From Elusimicrobia bacterium GWB2_63_22 (GTDB taxonomy: Bacteria > Elusimicrobiota > Elusimicrobia > Elusimicrobiales > UBA9959): a stretch of 64,000 nucleotides of DNA. The first letter of the stretch is position 1, and every line of letters starts with the position of its first letter. Under the pieces are notes generated by a model, which saw nothing but the letters and a program-made list of their open reading frames with translations, had not been told where the DNA came from and did not search any database. Positions 1,931-24,575 of the stretch are shown here, piece after piece. The DNA lies in NCBI GenBank assembly GCA_001799735.1, contig MGUA01000020.1:7572-71571 (forward strand), written 5' to 3'. Made by a program: the position numbers and the translations under genes.

Positions 1931-3012
1931 CAGATGTAACCCTTCTTAAAAAGTTTTATCAGGCGCTTCAGGTAGGCCTTCATGGCCGGCTCGGCGGCGG
2001 ACCTGCGCACCAGCTCCGCCGCGGCGGCGCGGCAGACTTCCGTGCGCAGGGCGTGGGCGCGGCTGCCGTCGGCCAGGCCGGGCAGGCGGTAATAGGAGCG
2101 GGCGCAGGCCAGGCAGCGGCGGGAACCGGCGGCAGGAGCGCAGGCGGCGTATTTTTTAGCCACCCCCCCATCAGCCGTGCCGATGGCCGCGGCCCTGCGC
2201 TCGGCGGCAGTGCGCAGGAAAGGGTAAGGGTAGAAGGAGAGGGTGCCGTCGGGGAAGAGTTCCAGGTCGCGCAGGAAAGGGCAGAAGGTGCTCTTGAATT
2301 CTTTGTCCCTGAGGAATTCCAGCAGCGGCTCCAGCACCACCGGGGATTTGTCCCCCGCGTGCGCCAGGGTGTAGGCGGCTATCTTTTTCATGCCGGCTTC
2401 GAAAGCTTTATAGTCGGCGGCCCGCCAGGGGAAACCGTGCACGCATTCTATGCCGATATTTCGGAAGCCGTCCTCCGCCAGCCGCAGGAAATCCTGGTAG
2501 GCGGCCGCGGCGCGCCGCGGGTGCACGCAGAGTATGACGTGCAGACCCTCGCCCAGCTTTGAGAGGAACATCGGGATCTTGGCCTCCACGGCGGCGTGGG
2601 AGCCTTTCCCGGAAATAAATTTGCGCGACAGGTCGTGGCTGCGGCCGCTGCCGGAGAAGCTCACGGCGAAACGGACGCCGCGGGCGGCCAGCCAGTCCAG
2701 CTGCTCGGCGCCGGCCAGCACGCCGTTGCTGGCCACGGAGACGGCGAGGGTCTTGCCGAGTTTTCTGGCGAGTGAGCGGGCGGCGGTGATGATGGTTTTG
2801 ACCAGTTCGAATTCCATCAGGGGCTCGCCGCCGTAGATCTCGAGGGTCTTGGTCCGGCCGGGGGAGCGCAGGAAGGTCTCCACGGCCTTCAGGGCGGAGG
2901 GAGCGGGGATGGTCTCGACCCGGCTCTTGTCGATAAAGCAATGCGTGCACCGCAGGCAGCAGCCCGAGGTGACGGCTATCTTGAACTTCAGTATTTCCTT
3001 GTTGAACTTCAT
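1930..3012 (-). CDS. Radical SAM protein, HxsC-like by size and pairing with the HxsB-like gene
   Basis: 360 aa with GCCLRCTHC cluster motif, IYGGEPL, and C-terminal Cys residues (FCPF..., CLAC). Its stop overlaps the downstream start by 1 nt (TGATG at 1928..1932). The HxsC assignment is positional, not verified. Confidence 0.7.
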   Translation of the reverse strand: MKFNKEILKFKIAVTSGCCLRCTHCFIDKSRVETIPAPSALKAVETFLRSPGRTKTLEIYGGEPLMEFELVKTIITAARSLARKLGKTLAVSVASNGVLAGAEQLDWLAARGVRFAVSFSGSGRSHDLSRKFISGKGSHAAVEAKIPMFLSKLGEGLHVILCVHPRRAAAAYQDFLRLAEDGFRNIGIECVHGFPWRAADYKAFEAGMKKIAAYTLAHAGDKSPVVLEPLLEFLRDKEFKSTFCPFLRDLELFPDGTLSFYPYPFLRTAAERRAAAIGTADGGVAKKYAACAPAAGSRRCLACARSYYRLPGLADGSRAHALRTEVCRAAAAELVRRSAAEPAMKAYLKRLIKLFKKGYI

Positions 3013-3040
3013 CGTTATTTCAGTTTCCGGTCATCGCTGC

Positions 3041-3169
3041 GCCGCCACCGGGGCAGGAACGCAAAAACGTGGTCTCGCACACCGTGCTCGCCACTCCCCG
3101 TCTCGGCCCTCGCGCTTACGCAAGCTCGGGCCTCCGACAGGGTTTTGCTAACCCTGCCCCGGCGTCGGC
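3041..3169. repeat. Possible degenerate, shorter third copy of the palindromic intergenic element seen at 30505 and 41613
   Basis: Flanking inverted repeat: ccggggcagg (3048..3057) pairs with cctgccccgg (3153..3162), extendable to 15/17. Inner segments tcgcacaccgtgctcgc and tctcggcc resemble ctcggcacacagtgcctcgc and tctcggcc of the full copies. The similarity is weak. It overlaps the 3' end of CDS 3116..4180. Confidence 0.3.
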
Positions 3170-4180
3170 ACGAAGCCCCTTCTTCTTAAGTAAAACCTGA
3201 GCCCTCTTCAAGCGGTTGTGGGAGGGCACCAGCGGGAAGGGGACGGCTGGTTTACGGACGGGGCGGAATTCGCTGCCGCCGAACAGGTCCGAGTACCATT
3301 TCTCGAAGCCCATGCAGCGCGCGTTGTAGATACAGGCCTCGCAGCCCTTGTTCTTGAGGCAGAGGCGCTCTTTGAGGCCGTGGATGCGGTCCTCGCGGCC
3401 GTCGATATGGAACAGCGGCTCGTCCTTCGTCCCGGCCGGGCGCTCCCATTCGGCCATCAGGTGGACGGCCTCCGGGAGATTGCAGGGCGTAAAATTCACC
3501 AGCACCGTGTCCTCTATCGCCGCGCCGGAATCCTTGAGATAGGCCAGCGCCTCGCGCACATAAGGCACGGCCTGGGTCACGCTCACCTTCAGCTCGGAGG
3601 CCCGCGCGGCCATCATGCCGTTGTAATGCGGGAAGATCACGTTAAAATCTTCTATGCCGAAGCGCCCGCTGATGATCTCCAGCAGGGGCTTGAGCTTTTT
3701 ATAGTTTCTCTTGTTGAGCGCGTGGTTGACGGAGATCTCGGCGCCCAGGCGCGTGAGGTTGTCGAAGGCCTTCATCACTTTTTTAAAGGCGCCCGGCACG
3801 CCGACCAGGGCGTCGTGGGTGGCGGCGTCGGGGCCGTGCACCGAGACGCGGAAAATGTTGGCCCCGGCCTCCACCAGCTCCCTGGCGTAGGCGGGGTCGG
3901 CCAGCTTGAGGCCGTTGCTCATCACCTGCACGTAGGGGTAGCCCATGTCGCGAGCTATCCGCACTATCTTGGGCAGGTCGGGGCGCATGGTGATCTCGCC
4001 GCCTATCAGGTAGGCGACCCAGCATTTTTCCCGGCGGCCCTTGTACAGCGCCTCGGCGGCCTTGGCAAAAGGCATGCGCTCCGCCACCTGGTTCAGCACC
4101 GCTTCCGGGTGGTAGCAGAACCTGCATTTAGCGTTGCAGTCGTAGTTCAGTATGACTTCGCAGTTGCGCGGTTTTATCAT
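3116..4180 (-). CDS. Radical SAM protein with C-terminal twitch/SPASM-like CxxCx5CxG motif; tandem paralog of 4177..5247
   Basis: 354 aa with CNAKCRFC, LIGGEITMRPD, and C-terminal CEACIYNARCMG. It carries a ~30-aa C-terminal extension relative to its paralog, and that extension is encoded by the repeat-like sequence at 3116..3200. Confidence 0.8.
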   Translation of the reverse strand: MIKPRNCEVILNYDCNAKCRFCYHPEAVLNQVAERMPFAKAAEALYKGRREKCWVAYLIGGEITMRPDLPKIVRIARDMGYPYVQVMSNGLKLADPAYARELVEAGANIFRVSVHGPDAATHDALVGVPGAFKKVMKAFDNLTRLGAEISVNHALNKRNYKKLKPLLEIISGRFGIEDFNVIFPHYNGMMAARASELKVSVTQAVPYVREALAYLKDSGAAIEDTVLVNFTPCNLPEAVHLMAEWERPAGTKDEPLFHIDGREDRIHGLKERLCLKNKGCEACIYNARCMGFEKWYSDLFGGSEFRPVRKPAVPFPLVPSHNRLKRAQVLLKKKGLRADAGAGLAKPCRRPELA

Positions 4181-5247
4181 ATCTCAAAAAGGGTCTTAAC
4201 CGCGAAAGAGCGCGGGGCCCTGGCCAGCGGCTTGAACTCCCTGCCGCCGGCGAGCTTTATGTACTCGGCGTCGAAGCCGCGGCAGCGCCGGTCCAGCGCG
4301 CAGCGCGCGCAGCTGGCAGGCTTGCAGCTCTGCAGGTTCTTCATCTCGGCCATGTTCACCACGGCCCCGTCGGCCGGCATCAGGGGGTCGCCTTCGGAGA
4401 TATCGGATTCCCAGTCGGCCAGCAGGTTCATATGGCGCGGCAGCAGGCAGGGGGTGAAGTTGACCAGCACGCGGTTGAGCGCGGGCACGCCGGACTTTTT
4501 AAAGACTTCCATCCCTTTGACTATATAGGGCAGGGTTTTAGAAATATTCACGCGCAGCAGTTTTTCATTGCAGGCCATCACGCCGCGGTAATGCCCGTAG
4601 ATGATGTTGAAGTAGTTTACGCCCAGGCCGTTATAGGCAAAGTCCATAAACTTCGGAAAATGTTTATAGTTCAGCGCGTTGACCACCAGGTTAGTGCCGG
4701 TCTCGCGGCCCAGCTCCCGCACATTGCGCATGGCCCGCACGGCCTTGTCGAAAGCGCCCGGCACGCCCACCAGCCGGTCATGCAGCGCCGCGTTGTGCCC
4801 GTGCAGGGACACGTCGAACATGTTGAAACCGGCGGCCGCCATCCGTTTGGCGTAGGCCGGGTCGGCCAGGCGCGCGCCATTGGTGCAGAGCTTTATGCAG
4901 GAGTAGCCGGCCTTCCGGGCGAAGGAGGCGACCTTGTCGATATCGCCGCGCAGCGTCGGTTCCCCGCCGATCACGGCGGCTATCCAGCAGCCCTGCCGGC
5001 GGCCCGTGTAGAGGGCCTTGAAGATCTCCTCCAGCGAGGGCTCCGGGCCGTTCGCGAAGGAGCCCGGTTCGGCGTAGCAGAACAGGCAGCGGTTATTGCA
5101 GGCGGAATTTACGGTAACCTCGCAGACCCGGGCTTTAAGGCTGACGGGCCAGCGTATATTGGCGAGGCGCGCCGCGAGGACGGCCTTGTTCAGGCCGGGC
5201 GTTCTGCCGGTCGCGAACCTTATGTTCTTTTCAAGCAATGAGTTCAT
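4177..5247 (-). CDS. Radical SAM protein with C-terminal twitch/SPASM-like motif; tandem paralog of 3116..4180
   Basis: 356 aa with CNNRCLFC, VIGGEPTLRGD, and C-terminal CARCALDRRCRG. ATGA overlap with the downstream paralog (4177..4180). Clearly alignable with 3116..4180 (SLHG/SVHG, LVGVPGAF, VNFTPC). Confidence 0.8.
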   Translation of the reverse strand: MNSLLEKNIRFATGRTPGLNKAVLAARLANIRWPVSLKARVCEVTVNSACNNRCLFCYAEPGSFANGPEPSLEEIFKALYTGRRQGCWIAAVIGGEPTLRGDIDKVASFARKAGYSCIKLCTNGARLADPAYAKRMAAAGFNMFDVSLHGHNAALHDRLVGVPGAFDKAVRAMRNVRELGRETGTNLVVNALNYKHFPKFMDFAYNGLGVNYFNIIYGHYRGVMACNEKLLRVNISKTLPYIVKGMEVFKKSGVPALNRVLVNFTPCLLPRHMNLLADWESDISEGDPLMPADGAVVNMAEMKNLQSCKPASCARCALDRRCRGFDAEYIKLAGGREFKPLARAPRSFAVKTLFEI

Positions 5248-15692: not shown

Positions 15693-17789
15693 TCAGGCCC
15701 TCTCGGCGCAGAAGACGCTCCATTTGCCGAGCGGCACCGTCCTGGTCAGGCGCCAGCCGGCCGACCGCAGGTCGTTCTCCAGGGTTTCCCGCGCGCACTC
15801 CATCCAACTCCCGGTCAGTTCCCAGCCGGGGCCGAATTCAGGATAGCCCAGGCCGCTGTCGATAATGAATAATTTAGCGCCAAAACCGGCCGAGCCCAGC
15901 AGGCGCCTGAGCAGGCCGACCCGCCCGGCCGCCGGCAGGGCGCCGAGCACCTGCGAAACCACGATATCCCGGAAATGGCCGCCTTTAAGGGCACCGGCCG
16001 CGGCCGCCGGCAGGGCGGGCCTGTCCGCGTAAAACCTGTCCCGGGCCGGCGGGGTCGGGAAAAAGCCGAATTTTTCTTCTACCAGCAGTTCCCGCGAAAA
16101 GTCGCAGCCGGAAAGCCGGGCCGGGTCGGAGGAGGCCGCCCCGCAGACGAGCAGCGAGGGGGAACGCAGCCGTTCGCCTGCTGCCAGGCGCAGCACCCTG
16201 TCGGCCGTGGCGCCGTCCACCCTCTCCCAGGCCAGGCGCGCCTCGCAGAACCCCGCGTAGCGCGCCGCGAAGGCCCGCCTCTCGCGGCCTCGCTCCAGCC
16301 CGGCCAACTCCCCTATCAGCCAGGCCCGGCGTTCCCTGAAAGTGTTCACGTCCAGCCCCGACCAGTCCCCGTCGTCCTGGAACGCGTCCGTCTCGGCCGC
16401 GGCCGCCGCCATGCCTTTGTCCGCCCGGGCCAGCCTGTTCACCCGGCGGCAGAGCGCCACCCCGGGAAACTCGCCGGCGTGGCCCCGCGCGATATGGCGG
16501 AACAGGAAGCCGAAATACTTATCCGCGAAGACGATGTTGGCGGCCAGCGACACTTCCCGGGCCAGCGCGCAGGCGCGCTTCAGCCCGGCCGCGCCGAGCG
16601 ACGGCACGCTGAGAACGTAATAGGGGTCCAGCTCCTGGAACTTAATGCCCAGCCGCGCGGCCGCCTTGCCCAGCGGCGTGCCCGGGTAGACGCGCAGGCG
16701 GTGGAAGAAGAGCCCGGCGTTGACCGAAAGGCCCCAGTCGAAGTTGGCCAGGCAGTTCTTATAGGTGTCGCCCGGCAGGCCTATGATGAAGCTGAGCACC
16801 ACCTTGGCCCGCGGGGCCGCGGCCGCGAGCAGGCCGGTCTTGCGCCGGAGCTCGCCGAAATCCATCCGCCTGTTGATCAGCCGGCAGGTCTCGGGGAAGA
16901 CGCTCTGCACGCCCACGCCGAGAATGAAGGCCCTGTCGTTGAGGAGCGGGATCCTCCGCTCGTCCAGGTTGCGGAGGTCCATCTGTATCTCCACGTTGAT
17001 CCCGCGCCGGGACACCTCCCCGCCCAGCAGCCGCAGCAGCTGCGGCATGGCGGAGTTCTGGCAGAGGTCGGGGTCTATAAGAAAAAGCGTGCGCAGCTCG
17101 GGAAAATCGCTCAGGATGCGGGCCAGTTCGGCCCTGGCCCGCCGGATGCCGAATTCACGGTAATTCCTGGTGATGGCGCAGTAGAGGCAGGACCCGCGGC
17201 AGCCGCGCGAGTTCTCGAAAGGGATGCGCGGGTAGCCCGCCCACTTGAAGAGGCCGCCCAGGTAGGGCGAGGGCACGGTTGAAAGGTCTTTGACGGACTC
17301 GCCGGGTGGATTGACGGCGACGCGCCCGCCTTCGGCGTAGGAAAGGCCCCTGACCCCGGCCAGGTCTCCCCGGCCCAGCAGCGCCCTGAGAACCGCCACG
17401 AAGGCCAGCTCCCCCTCCCCGGCTACGGCGTAGTCCACAGCGCCTCCGGAGAAGATCTCGCCGGCCGGCACCGAACCGGCCAGCGGGCCGCCGAAGATTA
17501 TTTTAGCGCCGCAAAGTTTTTTTACGCCCTGCGCCGCCTTCTTGGTCAGCGCCAGCCCGCCGTAGACAGTAAAGCCGGCCAGGTCCGGCTTCAGCGCCGC
17601 CACGCGCGCCGGAGCCTCCTCCGCGCCTACCCAGGGCTCCAGGATGGTTATCTCCACGCGCCCGCGCAGGAAAGGATCGCGCAGGGCGCAGGCCTTCAGC
17701 AGGCCCGCGGCCAGCGGCAGCAGCCCGTCCGCGTGCAGCGGCGGCACCAGCACCACCCTGTACTTGTCCCGGCGGGCGGCGGCCTTCAC
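15693..17789 (-). CDS. B12-binding radical SAM protein fused to a C-terminal methyltransferase-like domain
   Basis: 698 aa. N-terminal B12-binding-like region, then NSRGCRGSCLYC. The C-terminal ~180 aa (FRDIVVSQVLGALP...KLFIIDSG...) resemble the C-terminal half of a class I SAM methyltransferase fold; that assignment is weak. GTG start, with a GTGA overlap with the upstream stop. Confidence 0.75.
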   Translation of the reverse strand: MKAAARRDKYRVVLVPPLHADGLLPLAAGLLKACALRDPFLRGRVEITILEPWVGAEEAPARVAALKPDLAGFTVYGGLALTKKAAQGVKKLCGAKIIFGGPLAGSVPAGEIFSGGAVDYAVAGEGELAFVAVLRALLGRGDLAGVRGLSYAEGGRVAVNPPGESVKDLSTVPSPYLGGLFKWAGYPRIPFENSRGCRGSCLYCAITRNYREFGIRRARAELARILSDFPELRTLFLIDPDLCQNSAMPQLLRLLGGEVSRRGINVEIQMDLRNLDERRIPLLNDRAFILGVGVQSVFPETCRLINRRMDFGELRRKTGLLAAAAPRAKVVLSFIIGLPGDTYKNCLANFDWGLSVNAGLFFHRLRVYPGTPLGKAAARLGIKFQELDPYYVLSVPSLGAAGLKRACALAREVSLAANIVFADKYFGFLFRHIARGHAGEFPGVALCRRVNRLARADKGMAAAAAETDAFQDDGDWSGLDVNTFRERRAWLIGELAGLERGRERRAFAARYAGFCEARLAWERVDGATADRVLRLAAGERLRSPSLLVCGAASSDPARLSGCDFSRELLVEEKFGFFPTPPARDRFYADRPALPAAAAGALKGGHFRDIVVSQVLGALPAAGRVGLLRRLLGSAGFGAKLFIIDSGLGYPEFGPGWELTGSWMECARETLENDLRSAGWRLTRTVPLGKWSVFCAERA

Positions 17790-18874
17790 CTGGCCGCCCC
17801 GGCGCGCGGCACGTCCGGGTTTCCGGAGCCCATCCCCGTAGCGCGCAGCAGCCGGACGATATCCGTGCTGCTCTTGAGCATGGCTTTAAGGTCGCCGCCG
17901 TGCAGCAGGCTGCTGTAATAGATGCAGAGCAGGCAGCCCAGGAACTCGCGGCGCCCTCCGGCCATGACCGCCTTGAAAATTTTTTCCCTGGACGCCCTGA
18001 CCTTAGCGAGGTCCGGGCCGGTGCGCCAGTCGCCCGCGGCGTAGCGGGCGCGCAGCGCGGGCTCCTGGGCTACGCTGGAAGCCGAGAGCATGGAGCAGGG
18101 GTAGAAATACCCGTCGGGCCCGATGGAGATCTCGCCCTGGCCGCAGAAACTCTCCAGCCAGGGCTTGCCCGCCCGCATGAGCTTGTAGCCGAACCGCGGG
18201 CTGTCCTTGAAAGCCCCGCGGCCAGCGCCCTTAAGCCAGCGGCTGGCGGCGAGCAGCTCGCACTCCAGGCCGGCCAGGTCGGCGCGCGTCCAGCGCTCCT
18301 GCACCGCGAAAGAGAGCCCCAGGTCGCCGGCGCAGAGCGAAGCCAGGAATTTAATATTTTCAAAAAGGCGGGGCGCGGTGGCGCGCGTCACGGTGGCGGA
18401 GATGCCGAGGCTGCGGCGCAGGCTTTTCGGGATGGCCAGCAGGTTGCGCACTACCCGGGCGGAGCTCGGCGCGCCGCCGGCATCGACGCGGTTAAGGTCC
18501 TGGCTGGCGGGCGCCCCGTCCAGGCTTATCTTCAGGTGCACGCCGCTGCGGCGGAACAGCTCCGCCGTGGGGCGGTCCAGCAGCAGGCCGTTGGAAAAAC
18601 ATTCTATCTCCAGGTCCGGCCCGGCCGCGCGCCGCAGCCAGGGCAGCAGCGAGCGCAGCAGTTTTTTATCCAGCAGCGGTTCGCCGCCGGAGATGCTGAT
18701 CTTCTCGGCCCGCGGGCCGGCGGCCCGCAGATACTGCAGCACGGCCAGTTTCATCCTGCGCAGGTCCAGCCGCTGCGCGCGCGAGCGGTCGAGACTGCCG
18801 GAATAGCAGTAGCGGCAGCGCATATTGCACTGGTTGGAAACGCAGATGTCTAGTTCCTGGGGGATGGTGTTCAT
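17786..18874 (-). CDS. Radical SAM protein with twitch/SPASM-like region, HxsC-like by position
   Basis: 362 aa with CNMRCRYC, ISGGEPLL, and CGQGEISIGPDGYFYPCS (the typical SPASM/twitch beta-hairpin motif). It lies 95 nt downstream of the His-Xaa-Ser peptide gene. Confidence 0.8.
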   Translation of the reverse strand: MNTIPQELDICVSNQCNMRCRYCYSGSLDRSRAQRLDLRRMKLAVLQYLRAAGPRAEKISISGGEPLLDKKLLRSLLPWLRRAAGPDLEIECFSNGLLLDRPTAELFRRSGVHLKISLDGAPASQDLNRVDAGGAPSSARVVRNLLAIPKSLRRSLGISATVTRATAPRLFENIKFLASLCAGDLGLSFAVQERWTRADLAGLECELLAASRWLKGAGRGAFKDSPRFGYKLMRAGKPWLESFCGQGEISIGPDGYFYPCSMLSASSVAQEPALRARYAAGDWRTGPDLAKVRASREKIFKAVMAGGRREFLGCLLCIYYSSLLHGGDLKAMLKSSTDIVRLLRATGMGSGNPDVPRAGAAR

Positions 18875-18969
18875 CGGAAACCCGCCGGGGGGCGGGGCTG
18901 CGGGGGAGACGCGGACGGAAGCCGCCCGCGCCCGCGGATGCGGGACGCGGGAGCGCCGTTAAAGCCCTG

Positions 18970-19302
18970 CTAGCACCAGCCGCCGCGGGCGTGCGAACCG
19001 TGGCTGCCGTGCGAACCGTGGCTGCCGTGCGAACCATGGCTGCCGTGCGAGGCGTGCGAACCGTGGCTGCCGTGCGAGCCGTGGCTGCCGTGGCTCTGGT
19101 GGCTGACGTGCGAGGTCGGGTCGGCCGGCGGGTAGAAGTAGTTCTGGTGGATGGTCTGCGCGCTCGCCTGGTCCACCATCGCCGCGCCGAGTATGCCCAG
19201 CGCGAGGCCGGCCTTCACTATGTCGGCGTCAAGCATCTTCCCCTCTTCGCTGTTGAGGAAGAGCTTTATATTCTTTTTTACTCCGGGTTTTTTCTTTTTC
19301 AT
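18970..19302 (-). CDS. His-Xaa-Ser repeat peptide (HxsA-like precursor candidate), 110 aa
   Basis: ORF-track entry 18970..19317 begins at a TTG. Five codons in there is an ATG (19302) preceded by AAGGAG with a 6-nt spacer. Product: MKKKKPGVKKNIKLFLNSEEGKMLDADIVKAGLALGILGAAMVDQASAQTIHQNYFYPPADPTS, then HVS-HQS-(HGS)4-HAS-(HGS)6, then HARGGWC. Confidence 0.8.
   Translation of the reverse strand: MKKKKPGVKKNIKLFLNSEEGKMLDADIVKAGLALGILGAAMVDQASAQTIHQNYFYPPADPTSHVSHQSHGSHGSHGSHGSHASHGSHGSHGSHGSHGSHGSHARGGWC
18994..19110 (-). repeat. Coding tandem repeat: 13 x 9 nt, organised as ~18-nt units gtgcgaaccgtggctgcc, encoding His-Xaa-Ser
   Basis: Direct reading shows gtgcgaaccgtggctgcc repeated with minor variants from ~18991 to ~19110 on the plus strand. 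On the minus strand it is in frame with the peptide CDS. Confidence 0.85.
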
Positions 19303-19313
19303 GGCCGGCTCCT

Positions 19314-20381
19314 TCAATCCTTACCTAAGGCCTTCCTGGCGTTTTTATTCACGTCTTCTATTATTTTCTGCTCTTCTTTCTTGCGGGCCTCTTCGAGGCG
19401 TTTCTTTTTCTCGGGGCTCATATTCTGTTCGTGCGTCGCCTCCGTCTGGGCGAAAGTGCCGGCGATCTTGTCGAGTATGAGCGAGCAGACCGAACCGGAC
19501 TTGGTGGAGAAAACTCCGCACTCCGTCATGTACTTCTCGGGGCAGGCGGAGATGTTGTTGTCCCGGAGCGAGAGGTAAAGCCTGTTGTTGTCCATGCAGT
19601 CCTGGGTCCTGCAGTTGCGGCTGTCGGCGGGGAACGCCTCGCGGCAGCGGCTCTTGTCGCGGGCGGGCGCCATGTCGCAGATATAGGAGAAGCCTTTGGC
19701 CACCTCGCGGCAGAATTCCGGCGGCACCTTGGCGCCCTCCACGCTGTCCCCCGCGAGATACTTGCGGCAGACCGACTCGCCGTTGACGTTGAACCGGCCG
19801 GCGGCGTAAGCGTAGAAGAGCACGCGGCTGGCGGGGTCCACGCACTGGTAATGCGGGCTCCAGAAATATTTATCCTTCTTGTTGAGGGACCCGGGCAGGA
19901 AGTTGCACATGTTCAGGTCGCCGTAGGCCACGGCGTTGCAGGAGAAGAACTGGGCCAGCAGGCTGTAGAGGGCGTCGTTCTCTTCCTTGGTGAAGACGTC
20001 CGGGCCGAAAGTGGCGTTGCCCCAGGCCTTGCCGTGGGAGGAGAGGATGCCGTTGAGGGTTTTGCCGGTGTAGCCTACCGGGGCGCGGGCGAAGTCCGCG
20101 TTGATGGTGGGCAGCGGGCCGGCCCCGGCCATTTCGGCCGGCGCCTTGAAAACCGAAGAGGGCGGGGCCTTTATCGGGGCAGAGGGCCGCGTTTCCTGCG
20201 ACGGCTGCTGGGCCGCGTAGGCGGTGGCCTCGGCCGGCAGCGGTATGCCCGCGGGGGCCTCGGCGACGGGCGTAGCCTGGCCCGCCGGCAGGGCGGGAAC
20301 GGGGCTGCGCCGCTGCATGTACTGCAGGAAAAGCACCAGGGCCAGCAGCCCGACAATAGCGATCACCACTGATTTTTTCAT
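19314..20381 (-). CDS. Membrane-anchored or exported Cys-rich protein (12 Cys) with Lys/Glu-rich C-terminal tail
   Basis: ORF-track entry 19314..20489, trimmed to Met37 (MKKSVVIAIVGLLALVLFL, a signal/anchor sequence). That ATG forms an ATGA overlap with the stop of the HxsD-like gene (20378..20381). A Pro/Ala-rich linker is followed by a ~220-aa domain with 12 Cys. No family recognised. Confidence 0.65.
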   Translation of the reverse strand: MKKSVVIAIVGLLALVLFLQYMQRRSPVPALPAGQATPVAEAPAGIPLPAEATAYAAQQPSQETRPSAPIKAPPSSVFKAPAEMAGAGPLPTINADFARAPVGYTGKTLNGILSSHGKAWGNATFGPDVFTKEENDALYSLLAQFFSCNAVAYGDLNMCNFLPGSLNKKDKYFWSPHYQCVDPASRVLFYAYAAGRFNVNGESVCRKYLAGDSVEGAKVPPEFCREVAKGFSYICDMAPARDKSRCREAFPADSRNCRTQDCMDNNRLYLSLRDNNISACPEKYMTECGVFSTKSGSVCSLILDKIAGTFAQTEATHEQNMSPEKKKRLEEARKKEEQKIIEDVNKNARKALGKD

Positions 20382-20695
20382 TTGCTCCCCCGTAAGCGCG
20401 GCTTGTTTTCGCCGCAGGCCGACAGCAGCGCCTTGGTCACTATCATGCCGGCCAGTTTTGAATTCTTTTTGGCAAGGTCGATACGGCACTGCTGGTTGAG
20501 CGCCTCGTTGGCGAACTCGCCGGCCAGCCGGTCCAGCGCCGCGCCCCCGGACAGCCGCGCGACCAGAACGCCTTTGCCGGGCGAGACTTTTACGCCGCAG
20601 CGCCCGGCGAAGACGTAGGCCGCCAGCTCGACGGCCTCTTTAGAATAGACCGCCGAGTCAAAAACCAGTTCTTTAGCGTCAGTCTGCTTTTTCAT
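20378..20695 (-). CDS. HxsD-like small protein (copy 1)
   Basis: 105 aa. Its size, position next to an HxsB-like rSAM gene (ATGA overlap 20692..20695), and the segment LAGEFANEALNQQCRIDL resemble the LLNDYxLRE-type signature that I recall for the HxsD family. Not verified by HMM. Confidence 0.55.
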   Translation of the reverse strand: MKKQTDAKELVFDSAVYSKEAVELAAYVFAGRCGVKVSPGKGVLVARLSGGAALDRLAGEFANEALNQQCRIDLAKKNSKLAGMIVTKALLSACGENKPRLRGSK

Positions 20696-22146
20696 TTTTT
20701 TGCCACCCAGCTCTCCAGCACCTTTTTGTCGCGGGCGTTCCCCAGCCTTTTAAAAATAGCGGCGAAGACGCCCTTGAACAGGCTGCAGCGGCCGTTGGAG
20801 CGCATATTGCCCCACAGCGAGCCCTGCGCCTCGTAGTTGTACACGGGGCAGACGCCGCAATAGGGCTTATAGGCGCAGCGCGAGCATTCGGGCTGGGCCT
20901 CGAGATTGGAGGAGACCACGCAGGCGCGGGCGGCCGGCGAGGCGAGGACCTTGCGCAGGCTGTCCTTGAACACGTTGCCGACGCGGAAAATGTCGTCGCC
21001 TTCCCAGCCCACCATGCGGCCCTCGTCGCAGGTGAAGAGGTCGCCGTTGTAGTTGTAGGCGATCTGGCCTATGGCCGCGCCGCAGGGGCAGCGCGCGTCC
21101 AGGTAGCCGGGCTCCGTGGCGTTCACTATCTTCTCCAGCATCATGGCGGCGGTCTTTTCGCGCATGACCGTGCCGCGGCGGTTAAGGGCGAGGATGTAGT
21201 CCAGGCAGCGGCCGTAAAATTCCTGGAACTCTTCCGGGGTATAGCCGATCTTGTCCCAGAGGCCGCGGGCGTAGCCGATGGGGGCCAGCGGCCGCACGAA
21301 GATGTCTTCCAGCCCCAGCGCCGCGTACTCTTCTATGATCTCCTTCCAGCGGGGCAGGGACTGGCGGGACACGGTGAGCAACGCGCCGGGTTTGAAGACG
21401 CGGTACTGCTGCGACTGGCGCGCGTGTTTCTCCTGGAAATATTTTATCCAGCGCACCGTGGCGGCGTGGGAGTTGCCGCCGGCGAAGATCCGGTTCTTGT
21501 TATGCAGGTCCGCCGGGCCGTCGAGAGAGGTGCAGATGGAGACCTCATTCTCGAGGAGGAAACGGGCCTTCTCCTCCGTCATCAGGGTAAAATTGGAGAC
21601 CAGCGCCAGCTTGAGTTCCTTGCCGGTGGCGGCGGCCTTTTCGCGGGCGCGCTTCACGGCGGCCTTCAGCACGTCCCAGTTCAGCAGCGGCTCCCCGCCC
21701 TGGAACTCTATGGTTATCAGGGGATTGGGAGAGGTGAAAGCGAAATCCACGCTGGCCAGCGCGGTCCTGCGGTCCATGTCCGTCTTTTTTGCGCCCTCGC
21801 CGGCGGCGCTGGACTGGCAGTAGAGGCATTTATGGTTGCACCTGAGGGTCAGCACCAGTATGTGCAGGCCCGGCCCCTGGTCCAGGTGCGCGTTCAGGGT
21901 GCGCCATTTAGCGGCCAGCCCTTCAAAATCCATGCTCTCCCGGACGAAGCCCGCGGCGGCGAGCCGCTTGAAGAGGGGGTCTTTTTTGGTTATGCCGCCG
22001 GCCATGACCCGCGCGAAATCCTTCTCGCCCAGCAGGGCGTGACAGCCGGCGTCGTTGGTCAGCAGGCGGCCGCCGGCCACCCGCTCCCAGCGGGCCAGGG
22101 GCGTCCTGGCGGACTTTTTATTTTTTACGGGGCTTTTTGGCGCCAT
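20692..22146 (-). CDS. Radical SAM / SPASM-type maturase, HxsB-like
   Basis: 484 aa with CNHKCLYC, IEFQGGEPLL, and a C-terminal Cys block (CPCGAA..., CSRCAYKPYCGVCPVYN, CSLFKG) typical of SPASM auxiliary clusters. Paralog of 539..1930. Confidence 0.8.
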   Translation of the reverse strand: MAPKSPVKNKKSARTPLARWERVAGGRLLTNDAGCHALLGEKDFARVMAGGITKKDPLFKRLAAAGFVRESMDFEGLAAKWRTLNAHLDQGPGLHILVLTLRCNHKCLYCQSSAAGEGAKKTDMDRRTALASVDFAFTSPNPLITIEFQGGEPLLNWDVLKAAVKRAREKAAATGKELKLALVSNFTLMTEEKARFLLENEVSICTSLDGPADLHNKNRIFAGGNSHAATVRWIKYFQEKHARQSQQYRVFKPGALLTVSRQSLPRWKEIIEEYAALGLEDIFVRPLAPIGYARGLWDKIGYTPEEFQEFYGRCLDYILALNRRGTVMREKTAAMMLEKIVNATEPGYLDARCPCGAAIGQIAYNYNGDLFTCDEGRMVGWEGDDIFRVGNVFKDSLRKVLASPAARACVVSSNLEAQPECSRCAYKPYCGVCPVYNYEAQGSLWGNMRSNGRCSLFKGVFAAIFKRLGNARDKKVLESWVAKK

Positions 22147-22579
22147 ACTTGTCTTCCCAAGTGCTCGTCAGTCCCAGCGGGTCCGCGGCTCCCCCGCGGA
22201 CGTCCTCTTTAATTTCTTTCTCGACCTGCGAAATAAGGTCGGCCAGCTCTTTTTCCTGTTCCGGGGTAAGCCCGGAATCCGGGACCGGGGCCGGGGTAGG
22301 CGAGGAGAGCGCCTTCAGCGTAAGGAACTCCCTGAGCTCCCTGTTCTCGGCCGAAATTTTTTCCCGCAGCTTCTCGTCCTCCAGTTCGGCCAGGAACTTC
22401 CCCTTCAGGGCGGCTCCGGACCCGCCGTCTTTAGGCGAGAGCGACACGGCCACGGCGCCGGCGCCGGCGCGGCTTATAAAAACGAAAGCCTCGCCGCTCA
22501 GGGCGTAAGCCGCGTAGCGCGCGGCGTCGAGGCTGTATTTTTTAAGGTCTACCTTAACGTTTGCGATCCTGTTGTCCAA
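22118..22579 (-). CDS. HxsD-like small protein (copy 2) with acidic/Pro-rich C-terminal extension
   Basis: 153 aa. The N-terminal ~100 aa parallel copy 1 (YSLDAARYAAYALSGEAFVFI vs YSKEAVELAAYVFAGRCGVKV) and contain LAELEDEKLREKI (an xLRE motif). It overlaps the HxsB-like start by 29 nt. Confidence 0.55.
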   Translation of the reverse strand: MDNRIANVKVDLKKYSLDAARYAAYALSGEAFVFISRAGAGAVAVSLSPKDGGSGAALKGKFLAELEDEKLREKISAENRELREFLTLKALSSPTPAPVPDSGLTPEQEKELADLISQVEKEIKEDVRGGAADPLGLTSTWEDKYGAKKPRKK

Positions 22580-22612: not shown

Positions 22613-23398
22613 TCAGATTATACGGCAGCAGACCATGGTGCCGCCCCAGTCCTCGCCGAGCACTATGTAGCGGCCGACCCCGGTGGAAGTCTGGTTCAGG
22701 GGCAGGAAGCCCCAGACGCGGGCCACGCCGTCGCCCATATAGCCCATCACGCGGGCCCCCGCCGGGCAGAACGCCTGGGGCCCTATGGTGTACTGCACCC
22801 TGGAGCAGACGTTGCGGATATAGCCGGTGCCGGGGGTCATGATGATGTCGCCGGTCACCGAGATATTGCCGGAGACGCTGAGGCGCTGGCTGGGGAAGGA
22901 GGTGGCTATGCCCACGTTGCCGCCCTGGGTAATGGTCATCTGGGGCGAGGTGATGCGCTGGGTACCGGCCTGGGGCAGGCCGAAGACCCAGTTATTGCTG
23001 GAGTCTATGCCCATGGCCTTTACCACGTTGCCCTGCCGGGTCATCGCGATATAGGTAAGGGTCTGGCCGGAAGCAGGGCGCGTGACGCCGAAGGTGCCGT
23101 AGGACGCCGTGTCGGCATTAGCGCTGCCGTCCGTTATCTGCGTGGCCCCGTGCACGTGCAGTTTGCTGCCGGGCCCGGCGATGTTGATGCCCACGTTGCC
23201 GCCGTCCCTGGCCAGCAGGGTCTGGTTGGTGGTCAGCAGGCTGACATAGCCGCCGTAAGGGGCCGGATAATAAGTGGTAAGGGTTAAAGTCTCGGAGCCG
23301 ATAAAGCCCGGATGCCAGGCCAGCAGAAAGAAAGCAAGCAGAACCGAGATCTGCCTGCGGTTGAAGTTGAGTTTTAAGGATATTTCCGTGGTTTCCAT
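22613..23398 (-). CDS. Membrane-anchored or secreted protein with tail-fibre-like GNVGI repeats and a Cys-containing C-terminal domain
   Basis: ORF-track entry 22613..23434, trimmed to Met13 (METTEISL...), which is preceded by GGGGGAGG. It has a hydrophobic anchor (ISVLLAFFLLAW), TLTLTTYYPAPYGGY, two GGNVGI(N/A)...L.V.G motifs, and 4 Cys in the last 70 aa. Confidence 0.6.
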   Translation of the reverse strand: METTEISLKLNFNRRQISVLLAFFLLAWHPGFIGSETLTLTTYYPAPYGGYVSLLTTNQTLLARDGGNVGINIAGPGSKLHVHGATQITDGSANADTASYGTFGVTRPASGQTLTYIAMTRQGNVVKAMGIDSSNNWVFGLPQAGTQRITSPQMTITQGGNVGIATSFPSQRLSVSGNISVTGDIIMTPGTGYIRNVCSRVQYTIGPQAFCPAGARVMGYMGDGVARVWGFLPLNQTSTGVGRYIVLGEDWGGTMVCCRII

Positions 23399-23463: not shown

Positions 23464-23518
23464 AGTCTAGCAGAAAATATTAATATTTTCAACGGGAAGT
23501 TAAGTATATGTATATACT
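23464..23518 (-). promoter_or_regulatory. Candidate promoter plus two AT-only palindromes upstream of the Hxs-type operon
   Basis: On the minus strand: TTGAAA (23492..23487), 17 nt, then TAGACT (23469..23464). A perfect 18-bp palindrome GAAAATATTAATATTTTC (23473..23490) overlaps the -35 and spacer. A second near-palindrome AGTATAT-gt-ATATACT lies at 23503..23518. Both are striking in a high-GC background. Confidence 0.35.
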
Positions 23519-23907
23519 CAAAGGAGGACCACGGTAAAAGGGGTTTTTGACTTTTCCAGCAGGAAAGCCCGGGCTTCGCCGGCCACATCGGCAAAATCCT
23601 CCAGGTCTTTGGGGGAGGAGGCGAGAAAAGAGGCGGAATTGCTTATTACCAGAGCGTAGCCGCCTGCCGGCAGCTCTTCGTGCAGGGACCGGAGGCAGTC
23701 CAGAAGAGCGTCCCAGTTGCGGCCGAAATAGGCGGGAAATTTGAAACTGTCGGCGAGCGCCTCCATAAGTTCGGCCTTGGCGGGGACCTTTGCCCCGTCT
23801 ATCCAGGCTGTAAAATAAACCGGCGGAGGGAACATTTTATTGATCCCCTCCGCCGTCATGCCGCGGCCCTTAAGGTCCAGGAAAAGTCCTTGTTCCCCGG
23901 GGCCCAT
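23518..23907 (-). CDS. Barstar-family ribonuclease inhibitor
   Basis: 129 aa with ...ELMEALADSFKFPAYFGRNWDALLDCL..., matching the barstar signature (F-P-x-Y-[FY]-G-x-N-x-D-A-L-x-D-C-L). It lies immediately downstream of the RNase gene. Confidence 0.8.
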   Translation of the reverse strand: MGPGEQGLFLDLKGRGMTAEGINKMFPPPVYFTAWIDGAKVPAKAELMEALADSFKFPAYFGRNWDALLDCLRSLHEELPAGGYALVISNSASFLASSPKDLEDFADVAGEARAFLLEKSKTPFTVVLL

Positions 23908-23911
23908 CGGC

Positions 23912-24463: not shown

Positions 24464-24575
24464 GTTGACGTCCTTTATCCGCATTTTTAACGACAGCGTT
24501 ACAGTTATAGTTTAACTATACTGGCAAACCTTGCCGAGAGCAATAAGACCCAGGCCCGCCTAGGTCTTTAGGCCC

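What the first reader, a model, noticed from the sequence alone, without database searches (positions are those of the whole stretch)
17786..22579. Hxs-type locus with non-canonical composition: two HxsD-like genes, split partners, tight translational coupling
Minus-strand gene order: HxsD-like(153 aa) - HxsB-like rSAM/SPASM - HxsD-like(105 aa) - 12-Cys exported protein - HxS peptide - [95-nt gap] - HxsC-like rSAM.
Junctions are a 29-nt overlap, ATGA, ATGA, and then a 12-nt gap with SD, so the genes are very likely co-translated in fixed stoichiometry.
As I recall, the described system has one copy each of HxsA to HxsD. A duplicated HxsD, one copy with an acidic Pro-rich tail, and an intercalated Cys-rich exported protein are additions I cannot place. 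The two HxsD-like proteins may be RiPP-recognition or chaperone elements for the two different rSAM enzymes.
Basis: partly seen in the sequence, partly recalled or inferred. Interest (0 to 1): 0.8.

Follow-up and report, generated by a model that had tools for sequence, protein, structure and literature searches.

The report
Elusimicrobia-type His-Xaa-Ser peptide maturation operon
This is a lineage-typical variant of the radical-SAM "His-Xaa-Ser" peptide-maturation system, whose E. coli form was recently shown to block phage DNA entry; the version in groundwater Elusimicrobia has extra conserved partners and a second modification module that nobody has described.

Summary
The genes and junctions are real. 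One label is wrong, and the locus is not a one-off.

**Gene calls**
- HxsB passes its curated NCBIfam cut-off.
- The 110-aa peptide passes the HxsA4 cut-off.
- Both small proteins match HxsD significantly but below the cut-off.
- The 362-aa enzyme is not HxsC-like. It is a short SPASM/twitch-type radical SAM (rSAM) enzyme.

**Genes outside the given coordinates**
- True HxsC-like genes lie 12.5 kb downstream (3116-5247), next to a paralogue of the 362-aa enzyme and a second HxsB paralogue.
- A conserved upstream gene (22613-23398) also belongs to the module.

**Survey of 79 species-representative loci**
- 23 loci, mostly titled Elusimicrobia and the rest only 'bacterium', have HxsD genes on both sides of HxsB.
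- 14 carry the full HxsD-HxsB-HxsD-Cys-rich-peptide string.
- CPR and Myxococcota relatives have a simpler HxsD-HxsB-peptide form.
- Peptides ending in GGWC co-occur with the 362/360-aa enzyme family: 20 of 22 loci, against 1 of 35 for other endings.

**Best reading**
The precursor has two modules. HxsB and the HxsDs act on the His-Xaa-Ser repeats, and the twitch-type enzymes act on the GGWC tail. The peptide is then exported to work with the membrane-anchored Cys-rich protein.

**Verdict**
New variant of a known kind, of moderate interest.

The parts
23464..23492 (-). Sigma-70-like promoter match (TTGAAA-17-TAGACT, TG extension) ahead of the upstream conserved gene. Possible operon start.
   Evidence: This is a consensus match only: 2 sites were found against 1.3 expected in shuffles.
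22613..23398 (-). Conserved upstream gene 'unk273' (261 aa from the ATG). It has an N-terminal hydrophobic segment and tail-fibre-like GNVGI repeats. No family assignment.
   Evidence: It lies directly upstream of the first HxsD in L007, L008, L013, L014 and most Elusimicrobia loci of the survey. No Pfam or NCBIfam hit. Weak PHROG tail-protein hit, E = 4e-6.
22118..22579 (-). HxsD1: an HxsD-family domain (residues 11-93) plus a strongly conserved ~55-aa C-terminal extension (GLTPEQEKEL..LIAQVE.EIK..DPLGIT.TWE.KYG). TTG start preceded by GGAGGA. Its end overlaps HxsB by 29 nt.
   Evidence: TIGR03976 42.9 bits, E = 4.7e-11, cut-off 50. PF27806 hit. Tail conservation across 24 homologues. Sequence.
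20692..22146 (-). HxsB, the rSAM/SPASM maturase.
   Evidence: TIGR03978 473.3 bits, cut-off 370. Pfam Radical_SAM, Fer4_12 and SPASM. 35-37% identical to annotated HxsB on plasmids.
20378..20695 (-). HxsD2: the second HxsD-family protein (105 aa). ATGA overlaps on both sides.
   Evidence: TIGR03976 37.2 bits, E = 2.7e-9. NF038315 28.1 bits (cut-off 41). PF27806 hit. 30% identical to HxsD1, E = 2e-7.
19314..20381 (-). Cys-rich protein (355 aa). It consists of an N-terminal signal-anchor helix, a Pro/Ala-rich linker, an all-helical domain with 12 conserved Cys, and a Lys/Glu-rich C-terminal helix.
   Evidence: Alignment A1. 14 word-based homologues. 104 cluster representatives by profile search. 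No Pfam, NCBIfam, PADLOC or PHROG hit. AF2 pLDDT 65, all-alpha. No PDB fold match.
18970..19302 (-). HxsA4-class precursor (110 aa). It has a Lys-rich N-terminus with an FLNSEEGKMLDADIVK motif, the hydrophobic segment GLALGILGAAMV, the sequence ASA-Q, 13 His-Xaa-Ser repeats, and the C-terminus ARGGWC.
   Evidence: NF038313 67.1 bits, cut-off 55. Sequence and alignment. It is the only HxS run in the window.
18994..19110 (-). His-Xaa-Ser repeat array, encoded by an 18-nt/63-nt tandem DNA repeat. Copy number varies between otherwise identical contigs.
   Evidence: L004 encodes an 89-aa peptide with 7 fewer repeats.
18875..18969 (-). 95-nt G+C-rich spacer between the peptide gene and the 362-aa rSAM gene. 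No supported terminator or attenuator.
   Evidence: Fold z-score -1.35 against shuffles. No intergenic terminator match on this strand.
17786..18874 (-). rSAM362: a short SPASM/twitch-type rSAM, not HxsC. It has CX3CX2C at residues 16-23 and four conserved C-terminal Cys (244, 260, 314, 317).
   Evidence: Association with GGWC-ending peptides.
15693..17789 (-). B12-binding rSAM (698 aa), joined to rSAM362 by a GTGA overlap. Membership in the pathway is uncertain. It is absent from L008 and L010.
3116..5247 (-). Two tandem HxsC/HxsC4-like rSAM genes (356 aa at 4177-5247; 354 aa at 3116-4180).
   Evidence: NF038332: 105 and 90 bits. TIGR03977: 94 and 83 bits. Both are below the cut-offs of 500 and 267.9. 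phmmer hits to annotated HxsC and to Elusimicrobia HxsC-like proteins.
1930..3012 (-). rSAM360: a paralogue of rSAM362 (26% identity). Its orthologues in other genomes sit 4-12 nt after the GGWC peptide gene.
539..1930 (-). Second HxsB paralogue (463 aa), 37% identical to HxsB. It lacks four of the SPASM cysteines. ATGA overlap with rSAM360.
   Evidence: TIGR03978 314.9 bits, below the cut-off of 370. Alignment.

Best explanation
This is the form of the His-Xaa-Ser (HXS) rSAM maturation system typical of one large clade of Elusimicrobia. It is built around an HxsA4-class precursor.

**Shown.**
- A conserved module runs unk273 - HxsD1 - HxsB - HxsD2 - Cys-rich membrane protein - HxS-repeat peptide. 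It is tightly packed and found in many species.
- The peptide has an almost invariant N-terminal region, a variable number of His-Xaa-Ser repeats and a C-terminal RGGWC.
- The gene after the peptide encodes a SPASM/twitch-type rSAM. Its family is found almost only in loci whose peptide ends in GGWC.
- HxsC-like genes, a paralogue of that enzyme and a second HxsB paralogue lie 12.5 kb downstream. That block directly follows the peptide gene in another species.

**Inferred mechanism.**
1. In the cytoplasm the invariant N-terminal region serves as the leader that docks the precursor to HxsB and its two flanking HxsD-family partners. These, probably with the HxsC-like enzymes, modify the His-Xaa-Ser repeats. 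The analogy is the +8 Da change on an SHRSS repeat in E. coli.
2. rSAM362 and rSAM360 modify the C-terminal Trp-Cys, most likely forming a Cys- or Trp-based cross-link.
3. The hydrophobic segment and the ASA-Q site then direct export and cleavage.
4. The mature poly-His peptide acts outside the cytoplasm together with the signal-anchored Cys-rich protein. That protein stands in for the peptidoglycan-binding domain that canonical HxsA carries in the same chain.

**Final role.** Phage barrier or metal/envelope function is not resolved. Two features lean towards a housekeeping envelope or metal role: the lack of basic residues in the repeats, and the flanks being conserved only among its closest relatives.
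For: **Family assignments.**

**Conservation of the module.**
- The six-gene module with overlapping junctions is conserved at 44-51% identity of the Cys-rich protein.
- It is also conserved in loci whose HxsB is only 54-58% identical.
- In the 79-locus survey, 23 loci have HxsD on both sides of HxsB and 14 have the full string.
- The N-terminal 49 residues of the peptide are nearly invariant, whereas HxsB drops to 54% identity. The FLxSEEGK leader motif is shared with CPR peptides.

**GGWC association.**
- A single 40-member cluster of short rSAMs contains rSAM362 and rSAM360. It has members in 20 of 22 GGWC loci, against 1 of 35 loci with other peptide endings. The cruder 6-kb test gave Fisher p = 5e-6.
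- The association recurs in several separate sub-lineages (Elusimicrobia sub-clades, one CPR genome, unclassified MAGs).
- rSAM360 orthologues lie 4-12 nt after the peptide gene in L025, L029 and L034.
- L073 has peptide - HxsC-like - rSAM360-like - HxsB paralogue in a row.

**Enzyme class.** The nearest solved relatives of rSAM362 by sequence include the peptide maturases CteB and SkfB and anSME. Four conserved C-terminal Cys fit one auxiliary cluster.

**Analogy with E. coli.** rSAM-dependent modification, N-terminal processing and periplasmic action of HxsA are described in PMC13128918.

**Cys-rich protein.** It has a signal-anchor helix and 12 conserved Cys.
Against: - No chemistry, localisation or interaction was measured. 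Every step after 'these genes travel together' is inference.
- Both HxsD-like proteins score below the curated HxsD cut-off.
- HxsC-like proteins in the window are far below their cut-offs, and they sit 12.5 kb away behind genes of sugar/B12-rSAM type that may be unrelated.
- The GGWC association was found with thresholds chosen after looking at the data, and the loci are phylogenetically related.
- Some Elusimicrobia loci carry HxsD1-HxsB-HxsD2-Cys-rich with no HxS peptide within 10 kb (L022-L024, L026). Others lack both (L013, L018-L021). So the Cys-rich protein is not strictly tied to the peptide.
- One contig (L010) has the module without HxsB.
- The long, partly acidic N-terminal region is not a typical Sec signal peptide.
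Confidence: 0.6

Rival explanations
1. Functionally it is the same thing as the E. coli HXS antiphage system. The matured HxS peptide sits in the periplasm and blocks incoming phage DNA. The extra genes are only lineage-specific accessories.
For: It shares HxsB, HxsD-family proteins, HxS repeats, and a precursor with an N-terminal export-like region. HXS defence and its periplasmic mechanism are described in PMC13128918. A barnase/barstar pair lies next to the module.
Against: - The repeats are almost all His-Gly-Ser, with no Lys or Arg, whereas the paper attributes DNA binding to basic-residue-rich repeats.
- There is no peptidoglycan-binding domain.
- There is no adjacent HxsC.
- Among the closest relatives the locus sits in conserved chromosomal synteny next to BamA, OmpH, LpxD and PhoH. 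No mobile-element genes were seen in the flanks. Canonical HxsB is common on conjugative plasmids.
- No PADLOC model matches, but that 2023 library predates HXS.
Confidence: 0.25
2. One reading: each HxsD-like protein is a dedicated recognition or chaperone partner of one of two rSAM enzymes. HxsD1 serves HxsB, and HxsD2 serves the 362-aa 'HxsC-like' enzyme.
For: In E. coli, HxsD forms a complex with an rSAM (HxsC). There are two HxsD paralogues and at least two rSAMs in the locus. In L013 and L018-L021 the order is HxsD1-HxsB-HxsD2-HxsC-like, so HxsD2 there directly precedes an HxsC-like enzyme.
Against: - The 362-aa enzyme is not HxsC-like.
- HxsD2 occurs in 23 survey loci, but rSAM362 orthologues occur in only 2 of them. 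HxsD2 therefore tracks the clade, not that enzyme.
- Both HxsDs overlap HxsB, not rSAM362.
- HxsB has its own ~90-residue N-terminal region ahead of the rSAM core, which could itself hold the leader-binding element (inference).
- No structural test was possible.
Confidence: 0.2
3. The Cys-rich 355-aa protein is itself a substrate of the rSAM enzymes rather than a partner of the peptide. For example, it could receive thioether or other cross-links before export.
For: Loci L022-L024 and L026 have HxsD1-HxsB-HxsD2-Cys-rich followed by HxsC-like enzymes, with no HxS peptide within 10 kb. SPASM-type enzymes often act on Cys-containing substrates (family names).
Against: - It is a 355-aa protein that AF2 models as a helical domain (pLDDT about 75 over the domain), with a signal anchor. 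Its 12 Cys are spaced as in a disulfide-rich extracytoplasmic domain.
- In 14 survey loci it is immediately followed by the peptide gene.
- It has no HxS or GGWC motif.
- The peptide genes of L022-L026 could lie elsewhere in those genomes.
Confidence: 0.12
4. Two unrelated systems lie side by side by chance: an HxsB/HxsD module and a separate rSAM cluster. The peptide would belong to only one of them.
For: A 95-nt gap separates the peptide gene from rSAM362. The downstream genes (B12 rSAMs, amine-oxidase-like, NTP transferase, GT2) look like a different pathway.
Against: A single peptide carries both the HxS repeats and the GGWC tail. The GGWC tail co-varies with the rSAM362/360 family across lineages. 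The window holds only one HxS peptide gene.
Confidence: 0.05

Closest known systems
HXS antiphage system of E. coli and other Pseudomonadota (HxsA, HxsB, HxsC, HxsD; Li et al., Nat Commun 2026, PMC13128918; NCBIfam TIGR03976-TIGR03979)
   Same: - An HxsB rSAM/SPASM maturase above the curated cut-off.
- Small HxsD-family proteins encoded next to HxsB.
- A precursor with tandem His-Xaa-Ser repeats and an N-terminal region suited to processing and export.
- Several rSAM enzymes acting on one ribosomal product.
   Different: - Two HxsD paralogues flank HxsB, one with a conserved 55-aa tail.
- No HxsC is adjacent. HxsC-like genes lie 12.5 kb away and score below the cut-off.
- The precursor is a 110-aa peptide with 13 mostly His-Gly-Ser repeats, no basic residues in the repeats and no peptidoglycan-binding domain. 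Canonical HxsA is ~214 aa with 5 basic repeats.
- It has a GGWC tail with dedicated twitch-type rSAMs.
- A conserved Cys-rich membrane protein and an upstream tail-fibre-like protein are present.
- The gene order is D-B-D-Cys-A rather than D-B-C-A.
- The setting is chromosomal and syntenic among close relatives, in Elusimicrobia rather than Pseudomonadota.
NCBIfam 'type 4' Hxs models: HxsA4 (NF038313), HxsC4 (NF038332), HxsD-like (NF038315)
   Same: The peptide meets the HxsA4 cut-off (67 vs 55 bits). The L014 homologue scores 91 bits. The curators have therefore already recognised this class of short HxS peptide.
   Different: - rSAM362 does not hit HxsC4 among its 25 best families.
- The distal HxsC-like proteins reach only 105 and 90 bits against a cut-off of 500.
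- HxsD2 reaches 28 bits against a cut-off of 41 for the HxsD-like model.
- No model exists for the Cys-rich protein or unk273.
- No paper in the searchable library mentions HxsA4 or HxsC4.
SPASM/twitch RiPP maturases that make thioether or carbon-carbon cross-links (PapB, CteB, SkfB; anSME as the fold prototype)
   Same: rSAM362 and rSAM360 have PapB as their best family hit (89 and 93 bits). CteB, SkfB and anSME are among the nearest solved relatives of rSAM362. They have an N-terminal CX3CX2C motif plus conserved C-terminal Cys. They are encoded next to a peptide whose tail holds a Cys.
   Different: - Scores are far below every family cut-off.
- There is no Pfam SPASM hit.
- rSAM362 has only four conserved C-terminal Cys (one auxiliary cluster at most).
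- The reaction and its site are unknown.
rSAM cyclophane synthases acting on His-containing three-residue motifs (HtkB, HaaB; PMC11499958)
   Same: An rSAM/SPASM enzyme cross-links a His ring to a residue two positions away in a repeated three-residue motif. His-Xaa-Ser has that same format.
   Different: This is a resemblance of motif only. HxsB is a separate family. The one measured Hxs modification is +8 Da, not the -2 Da of a simple cross-link. Nothing was tested here.

Membership tests
HXS system (HxsABCD) | HxsB rSAM/SPASM maturase (TIGR03978, cut-off 370 bits) | tested here: met
   473.3 bits, full-length match 19-481.
HXS system (HxsABCD) | HxsC rSAM maturase (TIGR03977, cut-off 267.9 bits) next to HxsB | tested here: not met
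   rSAM362 has no HxsC hit among its 25 best families. BLASTP to two annotated HxsC proteins gives E ~3e-4 over the cluster motif only. The distal paralogues at 3116-5247 score 94 and 83 bits.
HXS system (HxsABCD) | HxsD small protein (TIGR03976, cut-off 50 bits) | tested here: inconclusive
   42.9 bits (E = 4.7e-11) and 37.2 bits (E = 2.7e-9): significant, but below the cut-off. Precomputed PF27806 HxsD hits exist for both. An annotated Nostoc HxsD scores 68.9 bits.
HXS system (HxsABCD) | HxsA effector with His-Xaa-Ser repeats (TIGR03979) and a peptidoglycan-binding domain | tested here: not met
   Repeats are present (13 HxS). TIGR03979 is not hit, and there is no further domain in a 110-aa peptide. 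It fits HxsA4 instead.
HXS system (HxsABCD) | Gene order HxsD-HxsB-HxsC-HxsA (99.6% of systems) | tested here: not met
   The order here is HxsD1-HxsB-HxsD2-CysRich-HxsA4-rSAM362. Reference figure from PMC13128918.
HXS system (HxsABCD) | Blocks phage DNA entry; rSAM-dependent +8 Da modification and N-terminal processing of HxsA | not testable with these tools
   These are experimental properties.
NCBIfam type-4 Hxs variant | HxsA4 peptide (NF038313, cut-off 55 bits) | tested here: met
   67.1 bits, residues 13-109 on profile positions 5-90 of 93.
NCBIfam type-4 Hxs variant | HxsC4 rSAM (NF038332, cut-off 500 bits) | tested here: not met
   It is not among the 25 best hits of rSAM362. The proteins at 4177-5247 and 3116-4180 score 105 and 90 bits.
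NCBIfam type-4 Hxs variant | HxsD-like protein (NF038315, cut-off 41 bits) | tested here: not met
   HxsD2 scores 28.1 bits. HxsD1 has no hit.
SPASM/twitch peptide-modifying rSAM enzymes | CX3CX2C rSAM cluster motif plus C-terminal Cys for auxiliary Fe-S cluster(s) | tested here: inconclusive
   Pfam Radical_SAM and Fer4_12 are hit, SPASM is not. C16/C20/C23 and C244, C260, C314, C317 are conserved in 19-20 of 20 homologues. Nearest solved sequences include CteB, SkfB and anSME.

The most novel reading that the evidence does not exclude
The locus is the core of an undescribed multi-enzyme pathway spanning about 23 kb and including at least nine rSAM genes. It would turn one hybrid precursor into a heavily cross-linked, possibly glycosylated, poly(His-Gly-Ser) peptide. 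Two separate recognition/modification modules would act on it: the HxS repeats through HxsB, the HxsDs and HxsC-like enzymes, and the GGWC tail through a new twitch-rSAM family. The product would be displayed in the envelope on a dedicated disulfide-rich membrane protein. It would serve a housekeeping role in Elusimicrobia and, in simpler form, in CPR bacteria and Myxococcota, for example metal capture or envelope structure rather than phage defence. On this reading the E. coli defence system would be a late, specialised offshoot of a much wider family.
Probability: 0.3. Interest if true: 0.75.

Novelty: new variant of a known kind. Interest (0 to 1): 0.55.

Why it matters
- **Distribution.** The HXS system has only just been given a function. 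It was reported as 99.7% Pseudomonadota with a nearly fixed four-gene layout, but that census was seeded with HxsA. Starting from HxsB, this window leads to a large unexplored radiation in Elusimicrobia, CPR bacteria and Myxococcota. There the precursor is a short exported (His-Gly-Ser)n peptide.
- **Testable predictions.** The Elusimicrobia form adds conserved partners of unknown fold: the Cys-rich protein, a tailed HxsD and unk273. The link between the GGWC tail and a specific rSAM family predicts an enzyme-substrate pair.
- **Evolutionary question.** If the role here is not defence, it would show how a defence system was recruited from an envelope or metal-handling pathway, or the reverse.
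- **Annotation.** These partners are currently all named 'hypothetical protein'.

Tried and rejected
1. **rSAM362 as HxsC:** rejected.
2. **Structure of HxsD, to test an RRE-like fold.** Only a two-sequence alignment was allowed. AF2 gave pLDDT 42, which is unusable, so no fold search was run. A PDB sequence search with HxsD1 found nothing meaningful.
3. **Fold of the Cys-rich protein.** The AF2 model was moderate (pLDDT 65). Foldseek against the PDB gave no match with E <= 0.001; the best was E = 1.9.
4. **Attenuator or terminator in the 95-nt spacer.** The fold is no better than shuffles (z = -1.35), and there is no intergenic terminator match.
5. **PADLOC.** No Hxs models; only generic viperin-type rSAM similarity.
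6. **PHROGs.** Only a weak tail-fibre repeat hit for unk273.
7. **First GGWC test.** It used a rule of 'best hit rSAM362, or weak HxsB hit, within 6 kb' and gave 18/22 against 6/32. It was replaced by sequence clustering, which removed the weak false members.
8. **Literature.** No paper mentions HxsA4 or HxsC4. The Elusimicrobia genomics paper notes rSAM-rich regions near nitrogenase paralogues but not Hxs. A search for the solved ChlB enzyme found nothing.
9. **Not used:** the metagenome-contig scan and the RNA tools. Nothing pointed to an RNA element.

Full report

Yes, with one wrong label and boundaries that are too narrow. The minus strand carries six tightly packed genes:
- a 153-aa protein (22118-22579; TTG start behind GGAGGA)
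- a 484-aa protein (20692-22146)
- a 105-aa protein (20378-20695)
- a 355-aa protein (19314-20381)
- a 110-aa peptide (18970-19302)
- a 362-aa protein (17786-18874)

Gene calls on 11 public contigs carrying an identical 484-aa protein agree with these boundaries. Most of these contigs come from Rifle aquifer groundwater metagenomes.

Overlaps of this kind are ordinary in operons, so the junctions alone are not remarkable. They are, however, kept in homologous loci L007 and L008.

**2. What the genes are**

*HxsB.* The 484-aa protein is a bona fide HxsB: TIGR03978 473 bits against a cut-off of 370, plus Pfam Radical_SAM, Fer4_12 and SPASM.

*The peptide.* It meets the curated cut-off of NCBIfam HxsA4 (67 against 55 bits). 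It does not hit canonical HxsA.

*The two small proteins.* They are 30% identical to each other. They hit the HxsD model at E = 5e-11 and 3e-9 but below its cut-off (42.9 and 37.2 against 50). Both have precomputed Pfam PF27806 (HxsD) hits.

*The 355-aa protein.* It has no family in Pfam, NCBIfam, PADLOC or PHROGs. Its parts are:
- an N-terminal hydrophobic helix
- a Pro/Ala-rich linker that AF2 leaves disordered
- an all-helical domain with 12 conserved cysteines
- a Lys/Glu-rich terminal helix

It has no structural neighbour in the PDB. A profile search of 1.84 billion cluster representatives finds only 104 relatives.

*The 362-aa protein.* It is not HxsC-like:
- Neither TIGR03977 nor the HxsC4 model is among its 25 best hits. 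PapB leads at 89 bits.
- BLASTP to two annotated HxsC proteins aligns only the cluster-binding motif.
- It has about 20 close relatives, then a drop to generic 30% matches.
- It carries CX3CX2C at residues 16-23 and four conserved C-terminal cysteines.
- Its nearest solved relatives include CteB, SkfB and anSME.

It is therefore a short SPASM/twitch-type peptide maturase.

**3. Beyond the given coordinates**

*Upstream.* A 261-aa gene (22613-23398) ends 33 nt before HxsD1. It accompanies the module in most related loci. A promoter-like match precedes it.

*Immediately downstream.* rSAM362 overlaps (GTGA) a 698-aa B12-binding rSAM. This is followed by an amine-oxidase-like gene, an NTP transferase, another B12 rSAM and a glycosyltransferase.

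*The distal block, 12.5 kb further on the same strand.*
- Two tandem HxsC/HxsC4-like rSAMs lie at 4177-5247 and 3116-4180. They score 105/94 and 90/83 bits, below the cut-offs.
- A 360-aa paralogue of rSAM362 lies at 1930-3012 (26% identity).
- A second HxsB paralogue lies at 539-1930. It scores 315 bits, is 37% identical to HxsB, and lacks four SPASM cysteines.

The window holds only one His-Xaa-Ser peptide gene.

**4. How common is the arrangement?**

HxsB relatives of 52% identity or more fill at least 120 clusters. Every one that carries an organism name is from Elusimicrobia, and NCBI already names them HxsB. I scanned one genome per GTDB species with a profile of Elusimicrobia HxsB. This gave 79 loci, which I annotated with HMMs built from the window and its relatives.

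| Feature | Loci (of 79) |
|---|---|
| HxsD-family gene on both sides of HxsB | 23, mostly titled Elusimicrobia, the rest only 'bacterium' |
| Full HxsD1-HxsB-HxsD2-CysRich-HxS peptide string | 14 |

More distant loci have a single HxsD, HxsB and a peptide. These come from other Elusimicrobia, CPR groups such as Saccharibacteria and Parcubacteria, Myxococcota and Omnitrophota.

The composition is therefore the rule for its clade, not an oddity of this genome. It is still unannotated: NCBI calls HxsD1, HxsD2, the Cys-rich protein and the upstream protein 'hypothetical protein'. No paper in the library mentions HxsA4 or HxsC4.

**5. Anatomy of the peptide and a new association**

*Leader.* Across loci whose HxsB is only 54-58% identical, the first 49 residues of the peptide are almost invariant: KNIKLFLNSEEGKMLDADIVKTGLALGILGAAMVDQA. 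The FLxSEEGK motif followed by a hydrophobic segment also occurs in CPR peptides.

*Repeats.* Repeat number varies, even between contigs with identical HxsB: 110 against 89 aa. The DNA is an 18/63-nt tandem repeat.

*C-termini.* They fall into two classes, ...RGGWC (or GGWCxPRC) and ...GS[YW].

*Clustering.* I clustered all short SPASM-like rSAMs of the loci. One 40-member family contains both rSAM362 and rSAM360.

| Peptide ending | Loci with a family member |
|---|---|
| GGWC | 20 of 22 |
| Other | 1 of 35 |

The remaining 10 family members lie in loci where no peptide was found.

*Positions.*
- Orthologues of rSAM360 sit 4-12 nt after the peptide gene in L025, L029 and L034.
- L041-L043 have one member of each subfamily in tandem after the peptide.
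- In L073 the peptide is followed by HxsC-like, rSAM360-like and HxsB-paralogue genes, in the same order as window 5247 to 539.

*Caveats.* The loci are related, and the thresholds were set after seeing the data. Against that, the pattern recurs in several sub-lineages.

*GS[YW] class.* Peptides ending in GSY are followed instead by a GT28-like gene and a different 320-aa rSAM in L014, L015, L028 and L039.

**6. Most likely mechanism**

*Shown.* The gene families, their conserved linkage and the GGWC association.

*Inferred.*
1. The invariant N-terminal region is the leader that brings the precursor to HxsB and its two HxsD partners.
2. These, probably with the HxsC-like enzymes, modify the His-Xaa-Ser repeats. 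In E. coli, HxsB, HxsC and HxsD are all required for a +8 Da change on an SHRSS repeat and for N-terminal processing.
3. rSAM362 and rSAM360 modify the Trp-Cys tail.
4. The hydrophobic segment and the ASA-Q site direct export.
5. The signal-anchored, disulfide-type Cys-rich protein is the extracytoplasmic partner. It supplies in trans what the peptidoglycan-binding domain supplies in canonical HxsA.

It is in fact the best conserved part of HxsD1 (GLTPEQEKEL..LIAQVE.EIK..DPLGIT.TWE.KYG), so it is a functional docking element rather than a spacer.

*One HxsD per rSAM.* The data do not favour this idea, because HxsD2 tracks the clade and not rSAM362. In L013 and L018-L021, however, HxsD2 directly precedes an HxsC-like gene. 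That is compatible with the HxsC-HxsD complex seen in E. coli.

*Biological role.* It is open.
- For defence: homology to HXS.
- Against defence: the repeats have no basic residues, there is no cell-wall-binding domain, and among the closest relatives the locus sits in conserved synteny beside BamA, OmpH, LpxD and PhoH rather than on mobile DNA.
- A metal-binding or envelope role for a poly-His peptide is at least as likely. This last point is my own inference.

**7. Comparison with what is known**

It works like an HXS system and shares HxsB. As a member of the canonical four-gene family it fails on HxsC, on HxsA architecture and on gene order, and it is borderline on HxsD.

It fits NCBIfam's HxsA4 peptide class but not HxsC4 or the HxsD-like model.

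The tail enzymes resemble thioether-forming and cross-link-forming SPASM maturases only at class level.

The three-residue His motif recalls rSAM cyclophane synthases acting on His (PMC11499958). This is a resemblance only.

**8. Novelty and weight**

It is a new variant of a known kind. The points of interest are:
- the breadth of the HxsB/HxS-peptide radiation outside Pseudomonadota, contrary to an HxsA-seeded census
- the conserved unknown partners
- a testable enzyme-motif pairing

The locus itself is typical of its clade, which lowers the surprise.

**9. Dead ends**
- HxsD structure prediction failed (pLDDT 42).
- No fold match for the Cys-rich protein.
- No significant structure in the 95-nt spacer.
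- PADLOC has no Hxs models.
- Some clade members lack any nearby HxS peptide, and one contig lacks HxsB. Neither observation is explained.

Noticed in passing
window 539-5247 (- strand): A second Hxs-like block: two HxsC/HxsC4-like rSAMs, a paralogue of rSAM362 and a second HxsB paralogue that lacks four SPASM cysteines. It is syntenic with the genes that directly follow the peptide in L073.
   Followed up: yes
window 1-23500: Very high density of rSAM genes, at least nine: 463, 360, 354, 356, 451 (+ strand, 5321-6676), 489, 698, 362 and 484 aa. This fits the rSAM-rich regions reported for groundwater Elusimicrobia (bioRxiv 10.1101/765248).
   Followed up: partly
L004 5941-6210 versus window 18970-19302: Contigs with an identical HxsB encode peptides of 89 and 110 aa, a difference of seven His-Xaa-Ser repeats. 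This indicates repeat-number polymorphism, presumably by slippage in the 18/63-nt DNA repeat.
   Followed up: partly
L010 937-1750: A 5.7-kb metagenome contig has HxsD1 followed 20 nt later by HxsD2, with no HxsB between them. The Cys-rich gene, the GGWC peptide and the rSAM362 orthologue are all intact.
   Followed up: no
window 22118-22300 (HxsD1 C-terminal 55 aa); L064, L067, L074, L076 peptides: The conserved HxsD1 tail starts with GLTPEQEKEL. Myxococcota HxS peptides, which lack the FLxSEEGK leader, carry an LTPEQ(K/R)DI motif in their leaders. This could be chance or a shared docking motif.
   Followed up: no
L022, L023, L024, L026; L013, L018-L021: Some Elusimicrobia loci have HxsD1-HxsB-HxsD2-CysRich-HxsC-like genes but no HxS peptide within 10 kb. 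Others have HxsD1-HxsB-HxsD2-HxsC-like genes with neither the Cys-rich gene nor the peptide.
   Followed up: partly
L014 11454-13648; L015 12020-14133; L028; L039: Peptides ending in GSY are followed by a GT28-like glycosyltransferase-type gene and a 320-aa rSAM of another family. This suggests a different tail chemistry that tracks the peptide ending.
   Followed up: partly
L014 1983-5769: A NifH-NifD-like fusion and a NifD/K-like gene (Fer4_NifH, Oxidored_nitro) lie just upstream of the Hxs module in this Elusimicrobia MAG. This recalls the nitrogenase paralogues with neighbouring rSAM genes described by Meheust et al.
   Followed up: no
window 23518-24484 (- strand): A barnase-type ribonuclease (190 aa) and barstar (129 aa) pair lies immediately upstream of the module. 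The pair is also present in L007 and L013.
   Followed up: no
L038, L050, L055, L056, L059, L065, L068, L077, L079, L080, L084 and other CPR loci: Small-genome CPR bacteria (Saccharibacteria, Parcubacteria and others) carry HxsD-HxsB-HxS peptide loci. In many of these peptides a Cys directly precedes the repeats (…SAAC-SH…), which might be a lipid-modification site.
   Followed up: no
window 22613-23398 (- strand): The conserved upstream protein has GNVGI-type repeats with weak similarity to phage tail and tail-fibre families (PHROG E = 4e-6), plus a C-terminal Cys cluster. It has no known family.
   Followed up: partly
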